64,000 nt of DNA, from assembly GCA_000165345.1 (NCBI GenBank), contig CM000430.1:320001-384000 (forward strand), given 5' to 3'. Of this stretch, positions 10,722 to 16,524 are shown in pieces. Each line of letters begins with the position of its first letter. Within the stretch, counting starts at the first letter, position 1. Below the pieces are notes generated by a model. The model was not told the origin of the DNA. It searched no databases and saw only the letters and a list, made by a program, of their open reading frames with translations. The translations under genes were made by a program, and so were the position numbers.

Positions 10722-12320
10722 TTACCTAATATTAGTATACAAAGTAAGTGAGAACATAGGTATTGTTGCGTTGTCAATATAGTGAGAATATGCTTCTAGT
10801 AATGATGAAAAAAAGCTAATTATATATAATTTTGATAATGAATATTTACTTGAAGAAAAAAAGCAAGTTAGTTGCAGATACGAATATGTTGATATAAAAA
10901 ATGCAATCATTCCAATAAATGTTTTGTCTTTGTTCCCAGGTAAAGACATTTTCCCAAATAATATTCCAAAAATAGCGGAAAATGCATCTCCTACTCCTAC
11001 TGTTGCAATTCCTAAAGTTGCGGAAACGATGTCAAAATCTTGAATATCTTTTCTTAGTAGAAACTCCTTGAAAATTGGAATAGAAATCCCAACCAGCAAG
11101 CAAATATGGGTAATAATCAAATCGTTTATGCTATCTTTATTATCCAAAAAAGGTAACAATAATTTATTTATTAATTTTGTTAATTCTCTGTAACGGTATT
11201 TTCTCATAACCTCTAAATAAATGAAAATGCACGAGGCTAAATAGATGGAAATGACTGTGAATTCAATCGTTCCTTGAGACTCTTTAGTAGGCATTATATT
11301 AAATGATAATATTTGGGGAAAAAAGAGTGCGATTAAAAATAGATGAAAGATTTTCCGTGTAAATATTTTTTTTTTTTTTGAATCTGAGCTTAAGTTTACT
11401 ATTAGCTTAAACATAATTGGCAAGCAAAATATTACTAAAACCCAATAAATTATCAATGTTCTGATTTGAGAAGATTCAATAATCATCTTTAGAATGAAAG
11501 TAGAGACTTTATGGATATATTTGGCTGTATTATAGAGAGATAGGTATAATATACTCAATGCAGCAATTGTTAAATATTTAGAAAAACTTTTAATCTTAGA
11601 TTTGTCTTCTAATGGTATCTTTCTATAATTTAGCGTCATTTCAAATATGATGATGTTTACTGGAATCAGCAATATAGCAATGGCAGTTATACTATTAATG
11701 CATTGCTTCCATTCGAATATCGAATTTAAGATGTTTGCTTTAAAATTCGACAATGAAATTAAAAGCAGAAATGAAATTAATTGAGAAAAAATATTCAATT
11801 CACCAAATTGAGTACATTGGCCTCCTCCGCTTACAGAACTTAATGAAAGTTGTAATAAAGCCAGATGATATATAATTGCGCAAAATTCAATCCTAATAAT
11901 TTGATATTGATATTTATCTAAAACAATAAATAAGAAAAACAATGCAAATATTGTTATCTTAAAAAATAATGGCCACTTTTTTGAAAAAACAAAATTGTTT
12001 GCCTTATAAATAACCATACTTGATATTGAAATACAAATTGAAAATAAATTTACCGAATGATTTGAAATGGATTCGAAGCTCTTTTCACAATTCGCAATGG
12101 AAAGAAGGAGTAAAGGAAATGATAAGTTGTGAATAAAGTAAAAATGGGTATCATTTTTAATATTTACATTTAATTCCAGAAAAAGGCTCATAATACCTGT
12201 AATAAGCAATGTAAACAAGCTTAAAATAATGTTGTAATAGATTTTAGCTTCATTGAAATTAAGAGTTAAAACCAACGAGCTAAAAAGAATAATATCTATT
12301 AAGTGAAAAGTATTAACCAT
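10722..12320 (-). CDS. DOLK: Dolichol kinase (CTP-dependent, SEC59/DOLK family)
   Basis: Polytopic membrane protein. The C-terminal catalytic region VGVGDAFSAIFGILFGKMSLPGNKDKTFIGMIAFFIS...SSLLEAYSHYIDNATIPMF is collinear with human DOLK [35 protein letters not shown]...VSLLEAYTTQIDNLLLPLY. Confidence 0.75.
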   Translation of the reverse strand: MVNTFHLIDIILFSSLVLTLNFNEAKIYYNIILSLFTLLITGIMSLFLELNVNIKNDTHFYFIHNLSFPLLLLSIANCEKSFESISNHSVNLFSICISISSMVIYKANNFVFSKKWPLFFKITIFALFFLFIVLDKYQYQIIRIEFCAIIYHLALLQLSLSSVSGGGQCTQFGELNIFSQLISFLLLISLSNFKANILNSIFEWKQCINSITAIAILLIPVNIIIFEMTLNYRKIPLEDKSKIKSFSKYLTIAALSILYLSLYNTAKYIHKVSTFILKMIIESSQIRTLIIYWVLVIFCLPIMFKLIVNLSSDSKKKKIFTRKIFHLFLIALFFPQILSFNIMPTKESQGTIEFTVISIYLASCIFIYLEVMRKYRYRELTKLINKLLLPFLDNKDSINDLIITHICLLVGISIPIFKEFLLRKDIQDFDIVSATLGIATVGVGDAFSAIFGILFGKMSLPGNKDKTFIGMIAFFISTYSYLQLTCFFSSSKYSLSKLYIISFFSSLLEAYSHYIDNATIPMFSLTLYTNIR

Positions 12321-12575: not shown

Positions 12576-13496
12576 ATGCTTTCATTTCTTTCCAGTATTA
12601 ATGCGTGTAACTTGGAACTTTCAATTAATCAAGATGTGGGAAGAAAATCTGCGCCACTTAGTAAAAATAAAAAGGGTGAAAAAGGGTTAATTTTTAGTGA
12701 TGGTGAGGATATAAGTGGAGTTGCAATAGTAGCCATCAAACCGGGAAGGAAGTTGGATCATCAGGGTATCAGAGTTGAAGTAATTGGGCAAATTGATGTA
12801 ATTTATGACCAATCTTCTTCTTATGATTTTTTCTCTATCACTAAGGATTTGGAGCCTTCAGGGAGTTTATTTGAAACAAAACAATACAAATGGAAATTTA
12901 ATGCGGTCGATAAACCATACGAAACATACTATGGAACAAATATTCAATTGAGATATTTCGTAAGACTTACAGTTCTTAGAGCATACGCAAGCAATATTGT
13001 TAAGGAAGTCGACTTCGTTGTACAAAATTTAAGCAATGGCATCCCTAGTTCTATTTCTGAAAAAAACAAAATTCAAGACGGAATCAAAATGGAAGTTGGT
13101 GTAGAAGGGTGCTTACATATTGAACTTGAATACGATAAGTCTACTTATCATTTAAAAGATGTAGTTATTGGTAAAGTTTATTTCTCAATAGTACGGCTAA
13201 AAATAAAATATATGGAGATTGATATTATAAGACTTGAAACTTGCGGATCTGGACCAACAGCAATAACTGAAACTGAAGTACTTTCTAAATTTGAAATAAT
13301 GGATGGTGCGCCTGCGAAGCAGGAGACAATTCCTCTAAGAATGTACTTATGCGGTTGTGACCTGACACCTACATATAAGAATTTGCAAAATAAACTTTCG
13401 GTTAGATACTTTCTGAATTTAATTATTGTTGATGAAGAAGACAGGAGATACTTTAAAAGGCAAGAGATTACACTTTGGAGAAAAAAACTCGGATAA
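12576..13496 (+). CDS. VPS26: Vacuolar protein sorting 26 (retromer subunit)
   Basis: [38 protein letters not shown] matches Vps26 GETVSGKVNVTLKKPGKKLEHQGIKIEFIGQIELYYDRGN. The 306-aa size fits. Confidence 0.85.
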
Positions 13497-13960: not shown

Positions 13961-14326
13961 TTATTCTATTATTGTAATGTCAATAGTGTTTCGTCTTAGA
14001 GAATCCGGAAGATAATCAACTTTAGACTTATGGATCTGAAAGGATGGGGTTTGCCAATATCCGCAAGAGCACTTACCGCCAAACCAGCAATAATATCCCA
14101 ACTTTGAATCACAAGAACGATTTGGACAAGTTATCCTACCATTCTGCTCAGTATAGTCTTCCATCCATGAAGTATTTGAAATGAAGTATGATGTACATAA
14201 GTTATTTTCATCTTTAAGGTTGAATTCTTCGTTTCTTTCATTTAATTTGCCATGTTTAATAATATGATCTGTTGTAAATAACGTTGAACCACATTTCTTA
14301 CAGCGAAATACATACTTATTAGGCAT
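13961..14326 (-). CDS. Stand-alone zinc-ribbon protein resembling the C-terminal zinc-binding domain of YVH1/DUSP12 dual-specificity phosphatases
   Basis: YVFRCKKCGSTLF...CTSYFISNTSWME...ITCPNRSCDSKLGYYCWFGGKCSCGYWQTPSFQIHKSKVD matches the DUSP12 C-terminal domain as I recall it (LYRCRKCRRSLF...CTSYFIEPVQWME...CPKCSAKLGSFNWYGEQCSCGRWITPAFQIHKNRVD). No phosphatase domain is encoded within the 350 bp upstream. Confidence 0.55.
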   Translation of the reverse strand: MPNKYVFRCKKCGSTLFTTDHIIKHGKLNERNEEFNLKDENNLCTSYFISNTSWMEDYTEQNGRITCPNRSCDSKLGYYCWFGGKCSCGYWQTPSFQIHKSKVDYLPDSLRRNTIDITIIE

Positions 14327-14679
14327 GATATTATTTGCTATGATAACAACTAAATATATTAGATCAAAATAAAACGAAAATTATGATGGCTGTTCAAATA
14401 GATTAGATTTTAATTGTTGATTGCGCCAGGATTCAAAATGAAATTACACGCTTCAATCAGCATAATATTCTCATTTACCAACGTGTTATTAATAATTGCA
14501 TTAAAATTAAATTTACAAATTATTATATCTTTTTTTTCGCTTTTCCGAGATTATAAGGTATATTTTCCGCTGATTTTTTTTTTCGAAAGATAATAAAATT
14601 AGATTCAAAATAACTTAGTAGATTATAATACATAATAAATAAAAATAAATATTCAAGTCCCACTTAAATGTATTTGTGA

Positions 14680-16524
14680 ATGAATCTATATAATAACCCA
14701 CTTTTGGAGGTGCGCATTCCTCGTGTAGTAATAATTACTTTTGTTTTCATAATTTGGATTAGAAGAACAAATCAACAGGTAATTAATGCATGCACAATAG
14801 GAAATAATCCATGTACAGAAAATGCAGAATGCTATGTTGAGACTTTATTCATTGGCGCTCCCAAATGTAGATGCCCAAATGGTTTTCAGGGCGATGGATT
14901 AATAGGAGGCACTGGATGCCAGGATATTGATGAGTGCACAATGGGGATTCATACATGCGAGCCTAAAACTCAAAGGTGCATTAATACGATAGGGAGCTAT
15001 GAATGTGAGTGTCTGAGTGGTTTTAGAAAGCATGAACAACGTTTAAACGTGTGTGTTGATATTGATGAATGTATGGAATTAAGTGTTTGTCCTAGTTCCA
15101 CGTTGTGTATTAATACCGAAGGATCGTTTAAATGTGAATGTCTTGATAGAGAGCTAATATTTGATCAGGGAAGGTGCCGTCCCATCAATAAATGCACAGA
15201 TTTTAATGGAAGATTAAATGATTGTTCTCAAAATTGCGTTATGGGGAGTGACGGACGTGGAAAATGTGAATGTAACCCCGGATTTAAGTTGCATGAAGAT
15301 CGAAAAACATGTGTAGATATAAATGAATGCGAGGAAAATAACCCATGCGACCTTAGCATTTCGAGCTGTATAAATACCCCAGGTAGCTATATTTGTGACT
15401 GCTTTAAGTCTGCTGGGTATATGACATCCCCAATTAACAACAAAATATGCATTAATATAAATGAATGCGAGGAAGATCCAATGATATGTGGTGACCTAAA
15501 TATGTGTTGCAAAGATTTGGCTCCTCCAGACAAGTATGAATGCGTGTTTCCTAGTATTAATTCGGAAGTCATAAATAGAATCGACGTAAATAACCATTCA
15601 AAGGAGGGTATGAAAAATGTAGAAGGTGAACATAAAAATTTGGAAAACAACTCGAAATACATTCAAAATAATAAAATTTCAAGAAAATGGATTGAAACCA
15701 ATAAAGAATATGGTAATAATGCTGATTCGATTGAAAGTAATAATAATAGCGGTTGCTACGACTCAGATATTGAGTATCCAGGCTATACTATTCAAATTTT
15801 GCATTCATTAACAAGCGCATTTGATTGCCAATTACAATGCCAAGTAGACTTGGGATGTGACTTCTTCACCTATGATATGATGAATAGGGTATGTCTTTTT
15901 AAAGCAGCAAAGTCAGAACCAAAAGAATCTCCTGGGATGATTTCTGGTCCAAAGTATTGTAGTTATAAAAAGATAAACAAAAATAAGTTATTTCCGCTGG
16001 ATTCAGCTTCAAGCCAATCATCTCTTCTTCGTAGAATGTCTTCAAATAATAATTCAAATAAGTCAAATCAAATTTCTGACAACAAGTGTCCTCCTGGCTT
16101 TAACTTTGCATATGATATTTGGAGGAAACAAAAAAACAAAAAAACAATGGAAGTAATACAAAAACAATTTGGTACAAAACAGATGAATTCAATTAATCCC
16201 GTGGATATATCAGAAGGGTTGCAAAGCAATACTAATTTCATGGCAAACCAGATAAATCAATGGTATGATGTATTTTCAAACGTTCCAACCACATTTTCAA
16301 ACACAACAAAGCAGACAAATAAGCCTGTTCCCAAACTTGAATCATCCAACATTAATCCTGGATTTATTGCAGGAGGTATTCCTCCACCTCCAAGAGGTAC
16401 AAATTTTCCATACAATGAACATTACAAATTTAATCAATATCAAGACCAGAACAGTCAAATTCCTCATAAATATGGCCACAATACTCCCATATATGGAATG
16501 AAATCAGATAATTCAATTACGTGA
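14680..16524 (+). CDS. Secreted or type-I membrane protein with tandem calcium-binding EGF domains and a PAN/Apple domain
   Basis: N-terminal hydrophobic signal (VVIITFVFIIWI). At least 6 EGF repeats with DIDEC/DINEC Ca-binding starts. A PAN/Apple-like module follows (CYDSDIEYPGYTI...CQLQCQVDLGCDFFTYDMMNRVCLFK...YC). The C-terminal region is Asn/Gln/Pro-rich. Confidence 0.75.
   Translation: MNLYNNPLLEVRIPRVVIITFVFIIWIRRTNQQVINACTIGNNPCTENAECYVETLFIGAPKCRCPNGFQGDGLIGGTGCQDIDECTMGIHTCEPKTQRCINTIGSYECECLSGFRKHEQRLNVCVDIDECMELSVCPSSTLCINTEGSFKCECLDRELIFDQGRCRPINKCTDFNGRLNDCSQNCVMGSDGRGKCECNPGFKLHEDRKTCVDINECEENNPCDLSISSCINTPGSYICDCFKSAGYMTSPINNKICININECEEDPMICGDLNMCCKDLAPPDKYECVFPSINSEVINRIDVNNHSKEGMKNVEGEHKNLENNSKYIQNNKISRKWIETNKEYGNNADSIESNNNSGCYDSDIEYPGYTIQILHSLTSAFDCQLQCQVDLGCDFFTYDMMNRVCLFKAAKSEPKESPGMISGPKYCSYKKINKNKLFPLDSASSQSSLLRRMSSNNNSNKSNQISDNKCPPGFNFAYDIWRKQKNKKTMEVIQKQFGTKQMNSINPVDISEGLQSNTNFMANQINQWYDVFSNVPTTFSNTTKQTNKPVPKLESSNINPGFIAGGIPPPPRGTNFPYNEHYKFNQYQDQNSQIPHKYGHNTPIYGMKSDNSIT

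What the first reader, a model, noticed from the sequence alone, without database searches (positions are those of the whole stretch)
13961..14326. Orphan YVH1/DUSP12-type zinc-binding domain encoded as a 121-aa stand-alone gene
The ORF reproduces the spacing and residues of the C-terminal zinc-binding domain of YVH1/DUSP12 (CxxC...CTSYFI...W...CPxxSCxxKLGxxxWxGxxCSCGxWxxPxFQIHKxKVD). In yeast that domain is the part required for 60S ribosome maturation. Only 350 bp separate the ATG from the next divergent gene, so no phosphatase domain can be encoded upstream. A free-standing version would separate the ribosome-biogenesis function from phosphatase activity.
Basis: partly seen in the sequence, partly recalled or inferred. 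Interest (0 to 1): 0.6.

Follow-up and report, generated by a model that had tools for sequence, protein, structure and literature searches.

The report
Phosphatase-less YVH1 zinc domain gene
This small Cryptosporidium parvum gene encodes only the zinc-binding half of the ribosome-assembly factor YVH1/DUSP12, with no phosphatase half; that shows nature has kept just the part yeast genetics says matters, but databases already list the gene, wrongly named a phosphatase.

Summary
Window 13961-14326 (-) is an intact 121-aa ORF, identical to C. parvum Iowa II EAK88813.1/Q5CTT9. [quoted passage not shown] All seven Cys and the His that are (nearly) invariant in the family are present, as is the Trp that stacks on 25S rRNA helix H43.

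It is a free-standing gene:
- 353 bp, full of stop codons, separate it from a divergent EGF/PAN gene.
- No phosphatase domain is detectable in the 64 kb window or in the syntenic C. ubiquitum locus.
- Twelve Cryptosporidium species or genotypes carry 119-130 aa versions.
- dN/dS is 0.078.

Chromera, Babesia and Theileria keep phosphatase+ZBD, so Cryptosporidium lost the phosphatase half secondarily. ZBD-only proteins also occur in Toxoplasma/Neospora, Cardiosporidium and several metamonads.

The most likely function, inferred and not shown, is the phosphatase-independent Yvh1 job: binding the pre-60S subunit and releasing Mrt4 so the P stalk can assemble.

The gene is already in databases, misnamed "dual specificity phosphatase", and one review lists a CpYVH1 that is probably this gene. 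I found no paper noting the missing catalytic domain. Whether a phosphatase half survives elsewhere in the genome could not be tested. Interest is modest.

The parts
13961..14326 (-). Complete CDS (121 aa plus stop) of the ZBD-only YVH1 orthologue. Identical to C. parvum Iowa II EAK88813.1 / UniProt Q5CTT9.
   Evidence: ORF. Exact-sequence look-up. Yvh1 homology. dN/dS 0.078 against C. ubiquitum.
14252..14314 (-). Residues 5-25: the N-terminal beta-hairpin with the zinc knuckle C9-x2-C12, and the nearly invariant H25. It aligns with yeast C232, C235 and H248.
   Evidence: Invariant columns. Strands E5-9 and E15-18 at pLDDT 80-94.
14198..14251 (-). Residues 26-43: a variable internal loop of 18 residues, against 31 in yeast (249-279). 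In yeast this loop carries F260 (sarcin-ricin loop contact) and R269 (H89 contact).
   Evidence: The alignment is gapped and ambiguous here. pLDDT is below 50 for residues 29-36 and 38-41. Yeast contacts are from bioRxiv 10.1101/444414.
14006..14197 (-). Residues 44-107: the conserved beta-sheet core. It holds C44, F48, W54, C67-x4-C72, W81, C86-x-C88, W91 (yeast W329, which stacks on H43) and the PSFQIHKSKVD motif.
13964..14005 (-). Residues 108-121: a C-terminal tail ending in I-I-E, which is invariant in the five sequences aligned (C. parvum, C. tyzzeri, C. ubiquitum, C. canis and one unnamed Logan sequence). The model has low confidence here.
   Evidence: Alignment A1. pLDDT about 50. In yeast the Yvh1 C-terminus reaches Tif6/Nmd3; an equivalent role here is only an inference.
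14327..14679 (.). A 353-bp spacer to the divergently transcribed EGF/PAN gene (14680-16524 +). It is presumably a shared bidirectional promoter, and it leaves no room for an upstream coding exon.
   Evidence: Many stops in the ORF's frame. Blocks conserved with C. ubiquitum at 14412-14436, 14514-14554 and 14562-14571, with conservation lost just upstream of the ATG. The same gene order and a 349-bp gap occur in C. ubiquitum.

Best explanation
This is a real, selectively maintained, intron-less C. parvum gene. Its whole product is a Yvh1/DUSP12-type two-zinc cysteine-rich domain. [quoted passage not shown]

Proposed mechanism (inferred, not shown): the 121-aa protein does the phosphatase-independent job established for yeast Yvh1. 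It docks on the late pre-60S subunit between the P-stalk rRNA (H43/H44) and eIF6/Tif6, over the sarcin-ricin loop. That bends the stalk so Mrt4 loses its grip and is replaced by P0, allowing P-stalk assembly.

Shown here: gene integrity, homology, predicted fold, retention of the invariant Cys/His positions (the presumed zinc ligands), retention of the H43-stacking Trp, purifying selection, and absence of a phosphatase domain at the locus.

Inferred: zinc binding, 60S binding and Mrt4 release.
For: Homology and fold:
- The only significant PDB sequence hit is Yvh1 (E 8.6e-13; E 4.3e-28 over residues 223-348).

Conserved residues:
- All seven invariant Cys are present: C9, C12, C44, C67, C72, C86, C88.
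- Also present are H25, F48, W54, W81, P94 and D104.
- W91 aligns with yeast W329, which stacks on G1242 of H43.

The matched region suffices in yeast:
- Yvh1 residues 206-364 alone complement yvh1-delta (PMC9404827).
- yvh1-deltaN and the C117S catalytic mutant give wild-type polysome profiles (PMC2753163).

Stand-alone gene under selection:
- 353-bp spacer with in-frame stops.
- No DSP similarity in the 64-kb window or the C. ubiquitum locus.
- 119-130 aa orthologues in 12 Cryptosporidium species or genotypes, all starting a few residues before the CxxC.
- Conserved synteny.
- dN/dS 0.078, with 48 of 75 differences at third codon positions.

Orthology and secondary loss:
- The nearest non-Cryptosporidium relatives are apicomplexan and chromerid YVH1 ZBDs: Cardiosporidium 46%, Babesia bigemina 43%, Chromera 42% identity.
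- Chromera, Theileria and Babesia keep HCX5R plus the ZBD.
- P. falciparum YVH1 is 575 aa, and P. berghei yvh1 resists deletion.
Against: - There is no functional, expression or localisation data for this protein.
- The internal loop that in yeast reaches the sarcin-ricin loop (F260) and the tip of H89 (R269) is 13 residues shorter here. It is not conserved among Cryptosporidium species and is modelled with low confidence. Two of the three described rRNA stacking contacts therefore cannot be mapped.
- I did not check for Mrt4, P0 or eIF6 in Cryptosporidium.
- Human DUSP12's ZBD has other reported roles (stress granules, ZNF622; abstracts), so ribosome maturation need not be the only or main role.
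- Only 64 kb of the genome was available. A separate phosphatase-bearing paralogue cannot be excluded directly.
Confidence: 0.7

Rival explanations
1. The domain is retained but the job has changed. The ZBD-only protein no longer acts (or does not mainly act) in Mrt4 release. It serves some other RNA- or protein-binding role, as other beta-tent domains do (the RIG-I CTD binds RNA ends; Yippee and CULT domains are substrate receptors).
For: The rRNA-contacting loop is shortened and variable. The ZBD occurs in many non-phosphatase architectures: of 58 long homologues lacking HCX5R, only 11 carry a Pfam DSPc domain, and others carry HAD_SAK_2, UBA, DUF1308 or HECT_2. So the module is used in more than one context. 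The fold is shared with ligand- and RNA-binding beta-tent domains.
Against: The core is highly conserved with bona fide YVH1 ZBDs (42-46% identity to apicomplexan and chromerid YVH1), and the H43-stacking Trp is retained. It is the only YVH1-like gene reported for C. parvum in a phosphatome inventory. Mrt4 release is the one Yvh1 function mapped to this domain.
Confidence: 0.15
2. Gene fission rather than loss. The phosphatase half of YVH1 survives as a separate gene elsewhere in the Cryptosporidium genome and still works with the ZBD protein in trans.
For: A review lists four other dual-specificity phosphatases in C. parvum (cgd1_760, cgd3_1890, cgd6_3100, cgd3_1470), all paired with Toxoplasma genes and none with a Plasmodium gene. 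Their relation to the YVH1 catalytic domain was not examined.
Against: No DSP domain lies within the 64 kb around the gene or near the ZBD-only genes of C. ubiquitum, Toxoplasma, Cardiosporidium or Blattamonas. In yeast the phosphatase domain is dispensable for the ribosome function. A profile search with YVH1 phosphatase domains returned only metazoan DUSP12 among the 120 proteins listed, so it gave no positive evidence.
Confidence: 0.1
3. Annotation artefact. The ORF is the last exon of a larger gene whose phosphatase exon lies upstream and is spliced on.
For: In most eukaryotes the ZBD sits at the C-terminus of a 300-600 aa protein. Many short database entries are clearly partial gene models, for example the bird DUSP12 'partial' entries.
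Against: Only 353 bp separate the ATG from a gene on the other strand. There is a stop 18 codons upstream in frame, with many more beyond it. Cross-species conservation drops just upstream of the ATG. The Met start is conserved in 12 species or genotypes. There is no DSP similarity anywhere in the 64 kb.
Confidence: 0.03
4. It is a decaying remnant (pseudogene) of a former full-length YVH1, or a member of another zinc beta-tent family (Yippee/Mis18/CULT) that only resembles Yvh1.
Against: dN/dS is 0.078 and all the invariant Cys/His positions are intact across the genus. Yvh1 is the top hit by a wide margin at sequence level (E 4.3e-28, against no significant hit to those families). Four further invariant positions (H25, C44, C86, C88), which I infer form a second metal site, are Yvh1-type.
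Confidence: 0.02

Closest known systems
S. cerevisiae Yvh1 / human DUSP12 (hYVH1): an atypical dual-specificity phosphatase with a C-terminal zinc-binding (cysteine-rich) domain. It is a late pre-60S factor that releases Mrt4.
   Different: There is no phosphatase domain at all. The internal loop carrying the SRL and H89 contacts is 13 residues shorter. The middle zinc knuckle is C-x4-C (CPNRSC, as in other alveolates) rather than C-x2-C. The C-terminal tail is a different, genus-specific ...IIE.
Apicomplexan and chromerid YVH1 (P. falciparum PF3D7_0309000, 575 aa; Babesia 336-595 aa; Theileria 360 aa; Chromera velia 476 aa)
   Same: These are the closest ZBD sequences outside the genus (about 39-43% identity; 46% for Cardiosporidium) and share the CPNxxC knuckle. 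This points to vertical orthology.
   Different: They retain an N-terminal HCX5R catalytic domain. PfYVH1 has measured phosphatase activity, as cited.
Other ZBD-only proteins: Toxoplasma/Hammondia/Neospora (165-177 aa), Cardiosporidium (149 aa), the metamonads Blattamonas (114), Aduncisulcus (115), Barthelona (120) and Monocercomonoides (139), and Euplotes (156)
   Same: These are short proteins consisting essentially of the ZBD. No phosphatase domain was detectable within 8-10 kb in the four loci I examined.
   Different: They are not close relatives of the Cryptosporidium protein (32-41% identity). Toxoplasma adds an acidic N-terminal extension of about 45 residues and has introns. These are probably independent losses, and some may be incomplete gene models.
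Beta-tent fold zinc domains: Mis18/Yippee, YPEL5, cereblon CULT, MsrB, RIG-I/MDA5/LGP2 C-terminal domains
   Different: Sequence identity is 13-24%, and there is no significant sequence or Pfam match. The four further invariant positions (H25, C44, C86, C88), probably a second metal site, and the CSCGxW / FQIHKSKVD motifs are specific to the Yvh1 family.

Membership tests
Yvh1/DUSP12 zinc-binding (cysteine-rich) domain family | Significant sequence similarity to the C-terminal domain of Yvh1/DUSP12 | tested here: met
   phmmer E 8.6e-13. Profile E 4.3e-28 over Yvh1 residues 223-348. 752 homologues at E<=1e-10.
Yvh1/DUSP12 zinc-binding (cysteine-rich) domain family | Seven invariant Cys plus one His, enough for two zinc centres | tested here: met
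   C9, C12, H25, C44, C67, C72, C86 and C88 align with yeast C232, C235, H248, C280, C307, C310, C324 and C326. The Cys columns are invariant or nearly so, and the His column is 48/49. Which residues pair into which site is an inference.
Yvh1/DUSP12 zinc-binding (cysteine-rich) domain family | Mostly beta-sheet fold of the cryo-EM Yvh1 ZBD (PDB 6N8M chain Y) | tested here: met
Yvh1/DUSP12 zinc-binding (cysteine-rich) domain family | rRNA-stacking residues: W329 (H43), F260 (SRL), R269 (H89) | tested here: inconclusive
   W329 corresponds to W91 and is conserved. F260 and R269 lie in a loop that is shortened and cannot be aligned here. F35 of the C. parvum group may correspond to F260, but that is not secure.
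Yvh1/DUSP12 zinc-binding (cysteine-rich) domain family | Binds zinc, binds the pre-60S subunit, releases Mrt4, complements yvh1-delta | not testable with these tools
   These need biochemistry and genetics. The yeast data are in PMC2753163 and PMC9404827.
Dual-specificity protein phosphatases (DSP; the class under which databases and a review file this gene) | DSPc catalytic domain with the HCX5R(S/T) active-site loop | tested here: not met
   No Pfam DSPc hit even at E<=1. No HCX5R motif. No DSP similarity in the window by tblastn. The protein is too short (121 aa) to hold the domain. It should not be counted as a phosphatase.
Yippee/Mis18 and CULT (other beta-tent zinc domains) | Sequence-profile membership (Pfam Yippee-Mis18 or CULT) | tested here: not met
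   No Pfam hit at E<=1. Cereblon isoform 4 scores only E 0.7-1.4 in phmmer. The fold-level similarity is real but weaker than to Yvh1.
Classical C2H2 zinc finger (UniProt labels the C. andersoni orthologue 'C2H2-type domain-containing') | C-x2-4-C-x12-H-x3-5-H unit forming a beta-beta-alpha finger | tested here: not met
   Only residues 5-33 resemble the pattern. The hits are weak for the single sequence (E 0.04-1); the profile scores reach E 6e-7 to 1e-3 only by summing repeated fingers, with no individually significant stretch. The second His is absent from the family consensus, and the region is a beta-hairpin in the model.

The most novel reading that the evidence does not exclude
Eukaryotes have repeatedly stripped YVH1 down to its ZBD. 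Cryptosporidium did so, and coccidia (Toxoplasma/Neospora), Cardiosporidium and several metamonads appear to have done so too. This would make the 114-170 aa ZBD the true conserved functional unit, a minimal Mrt4-release factor, and the phosphatase an accessory that reduced or parasitic lineages discard.

Two corollaries follow. First, 'CpYVH1' and its counterparts are miscounted as phosphatases in phosphatome inventories. Second, the Yvh1 ZBD would be an unrecognised, rRNA-binding member of the beta-tent fold, probably with a second metal site.

A bolder version says that stand-alone ZBDs in metamonads reflect the ancestral, pre-fusion state. My evidence does not exclude this, but it is less likely.
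Probability: 0.5. Interest if true: 0.45.

Novelty: new variant of a known kind. Interest (0 to 1): 0.35.

Why it matters
Yeast truncation experiments showed that the Yvh1 phosphatase domain is dispensable for 60S maturation. What that domain does remains an open question. A genus that has carried only the ZBD under strong purifying selection is a natural counterpart to those experiments. It also offers a minimal 121-aa protein for structural and biochemical study of Mrt4 release.

There are two practical consequences:
- The 'dual specificity phosphatase / protein-tyrosine-phosphatase' annotation of this gene and its orthologues is wrong.
- If cgd2_1580 is this gene, as is likely, the count of five DSPs in the C. 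parvum phosphatome drops to four.

The significance is limited. The function is predictable from known biology, the gene is already catalogued, and nothing mechanistically new is implied.

Tried and rejected
- Pfam has no model for this domain. The only listed hit (DmmA-like_C, E 0.06, 13.8 bits against a cutoff of 27.4) is noise.
- The C2H2-finger similarity of residues 5-33 is a partial pattern match, not homology of the whole domain.
- I searched for a surviving phosphatase half. tblastn with 19 YVH1 catalytic domains against the window and six related loci gave nothing better than E 0.02.
- A profile of those catalytic domains against the 5.8-billion-protein collection listed only metazoan DUSP12 in its best 120 of 486 hits. 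The fission-versus-loss question stays open. No tool gave access to the rest of the Cryptosporidium genome.
- The afdb50 fold library was unavailable.
- Literature searches for cgd2_1580, for TGME49_235890, for 'beta-tent' with Yvh1, and for Yippee with DUSP12 returned nothing relevant. I therefore cannot show that the missing catalytic domain has been discussed in print, nor prove that it has not.
- The identity cgd2_1580 = this gene is inferred. It rests on the review's table, the ~993-kb contig size and the shared 'dual specificity phosphatase' naming. It was not verified against CryptoDB.
- I did not build a formal phylogeny. Orthology rests on ranked pairwise similarity.

Full report
**What is there.** The window is Cryptosporidium parvum DNA. 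The minus-strand ORF at 13961-14326 (121 aa, ATG to TAA) is identical to C. parvum Iowa II EAK88813.1 / UniProt Q5CTT9. That protein sits on contigs of about 993 kb, which fits chromosome 2. The ORF lies between a convergent Vps26 gene (12576-13496 +, Pfam E 2e-99) and a divergent EGF/PAN-domain gene (14680-16524 +). Gene order and spacing are the same in C. ubiquitum, where the gap is 349 bp.

**Is the resemblance real?** Yes.
- Pfam has no model for the domain.
- phmmer against every PDB chain gives one significant hit, yeast Yvh1 residues 258-345 (E 8.6e-13).
- A 43-sequence family profile extends this to residues 223-348 at E 4.3e-28.
- An exhaustive HMMER scan of 1.84 billion representative proteins finds 1838 homologues at E<=1e-3. 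In most of them the domain sits at the C-terminus of a 250-600 aa protein.

**Is it free-standing?** Yes, as far as sequence can show.
- Reading upstream in frame hits a stop 18 codons before the ATG, and there are many more across the 353-bp spacer.
- Aligned with C. ubiquitum, conservation is codon-like inside the ORF (11/16/48 differences at codon positions 1/2/3; dN/dS 0.078). It collapses just upstream of the ATG.
- tblastn with the catalytic domains of 19 full-length YVH1 proteins finds nothing in the 64-kb window (best E 0.02) or in the C. ubiquitum locus.
- The protein has no HCX5R motif.
- C. parvum, hominis, tyzzeri, meleagridis, chipmunk genotype I, ubiquitum, canis, xiaoi, bovis, muris, andersoni and serpentis all have 119-130 aa versions that begin a few residues before the first CxxC.

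The architecture is therefore old within the genus and under strong purifying selection. This rules out a pseudogene or a mis-split gene model.

**Where did the phosphatase go?** The closest ZBDs outside the genus belong to apicomplexans and the chromerid Chromera: Cardiosporidium 46%, Babesia bigemina 43% and Chromera 42% identity. Chromera (476 aa), Theileria (360 aa) and Babesia (336-595 aa) carry HCX5R plus the ZBD. P. falciparum YVH1 is 575 aa. The ancestor therefore had the fused protein, and Cryptosporidium lost or split off the catalytic half.

I could not decide between loss and fission. Only 64 kb of the genome is available, and a profile search with YVH1 catalytic domains listed only metazoan DUSP12 among its best 120 hits. 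A review's phosphatome table lists one 'CpYVH1' (cgd2_1580) and four other DSPs. cgd2_1580 is very probably this gene, because the contig size fits chromosome 2 and the naming matches, but I could not verify that.

**Not unique.** ZBD-only proteins also exist in:
- Toxoplasma, Hammondia and Neospora (165-177 aa, with an acidic N-terminal extension);
- Cardiosporidium (149 aa);
- the metamonads Blattamonas (114), Aduncisulcus (115), Barthelona (120) and Monocercomonoides (139);
- Euplotes (156).

In the Toxoplasma, Cardiosporidium and Blattamonas loci there is no phosphatase similarity within 8-10 kb. In addition, 47 of 58 long homologues that lack HCX5R also lack a Pfam DSPc domain, and a few carry other domains such as HAD_SAK_2 or UBA. 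The ZBD is thus a module that occurs with and without the phosphatase.

**How it most likely works (inference).** In yeast the ZBD alone carries the ribosome function:
- Residues 206-364 complement yvh1-delta (PMC9404827).
- yvh1-deltaN and the C117S mutant give wild-type polysome profiles, whereas deltaC behaves like the null (PMC2753163).
[quoted passage not shown] W329 stacks on H43, F260 on the SRL and R269 on H89. This bends the stalk and allosterically releases Mrt4 (bioRxiv 10.1101/444414).

The Cryptosporidium protein covers exactly this domain and keeps W329 (as W91) and the whole beta core. Its internal loop is 18 residues rather than 31, varies within the genus and is modelled at pLDDT below 50. 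The SRL and H89 contacts therefore cannot be mapped. I put about 0.7 on the protein being the parasite's Mrt4-release factor. The main alternative (about 0.15) is a retained domain with a shifted role.

**Verdict.** Both the observation and the interpretation are supported. The gene is already catalogued, but it is annotated as 'dual specificity phosphatase' or 'protein-tyrosine-phosphatase' although it has no catalytic domain. A review counts CpYVH1 among five C. parvum DSPs. I found no paper that notes the missing domain. It is a reduced variant of a known factor. It is a tidy natural confirmation of the yeast genetics and a correction to annotation, but not a new mechanism. Interest 0.35.

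Noticed in passing
   Followed up: partly
window 14327-14679 (blocks 14412-14436, 14514-14554, 14562-14571): The 353-bp spacer shared with the divergent EGF/PAN gene contains blocks that are nearly identical in C. ubiquitum, although the species are at dS of about 1.5. The blocks include ..TTGCGCCAGG.., TTTTCGCTTTTCCGAG and ATTTTCCGCT. They resemble E2F-type GCGC/CCGC promoter motifs, a comparison I make from memory and did not test.
   Followed up: no
database entries for this protein and its orthologues (P0001, P0002, P0005, P0019, P0102, P0213, P0225-P0228): ZBD-only proteins are named 'dual specificity phosphatase' or 'protein-tyrosine-phosphatase' in NCBI and UniRef. A review counts CpYVH1 among five C. 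parvum DSPs. This is annotation transferred from the fused family to proteins that have no catalytic domain.
   Followed up: yes
homologues P0010-P0153 (alignment A2): Of 58 ZBD proteins longer than 200 aa and lacking HCX5R, only 11 have a Pfam DSPc domain. A few instead carry HAD_SAK_2, UBA, DUF1308 or HECT_2, and most have no recognised N-terminal domain. The ZBD is combined with other partners in some, mostly unnamed, eukaryotes.
   Followed up: partly
L002/L003 10001-13309 (Toxoplasma gondii), L004 5906-7376 (Cardiosporidium), L005/L006 8001-8486 (Blattamonas): Stand-alone ZBD genes occur in other protists, with no phosphatase similarity within 8-10 kb. This suggests several independent losses of the phosphatase domain. 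Blattamonas has two copies.
   Followed up: partly
window 10722-12320 (-): A 532-aa, very hydrophobic ORF next to Vps26 has no Pfam hit even at E<=1. Near its C-terminus it has a DAFSAIFGILFGK motif. From memory, this resembles the signature of CTP-dependent polyprenol/dolichol kinases. I did not test this.
   Followed up: no
window 13964-14005 (residues 108-121): The C-terminal tail ends in I-I-E, which is invariant in the five sequences aligned (C. parvum, C. tyzzeri, C. ubiquitum, C. canis and one unnamed sequence). Related acidic/hydrophobic endings occur in C. xiaoi (SLYE) and Toxoplasma (IQNIL). This is unexplained; it might be a docking motif.
   Followed up: no
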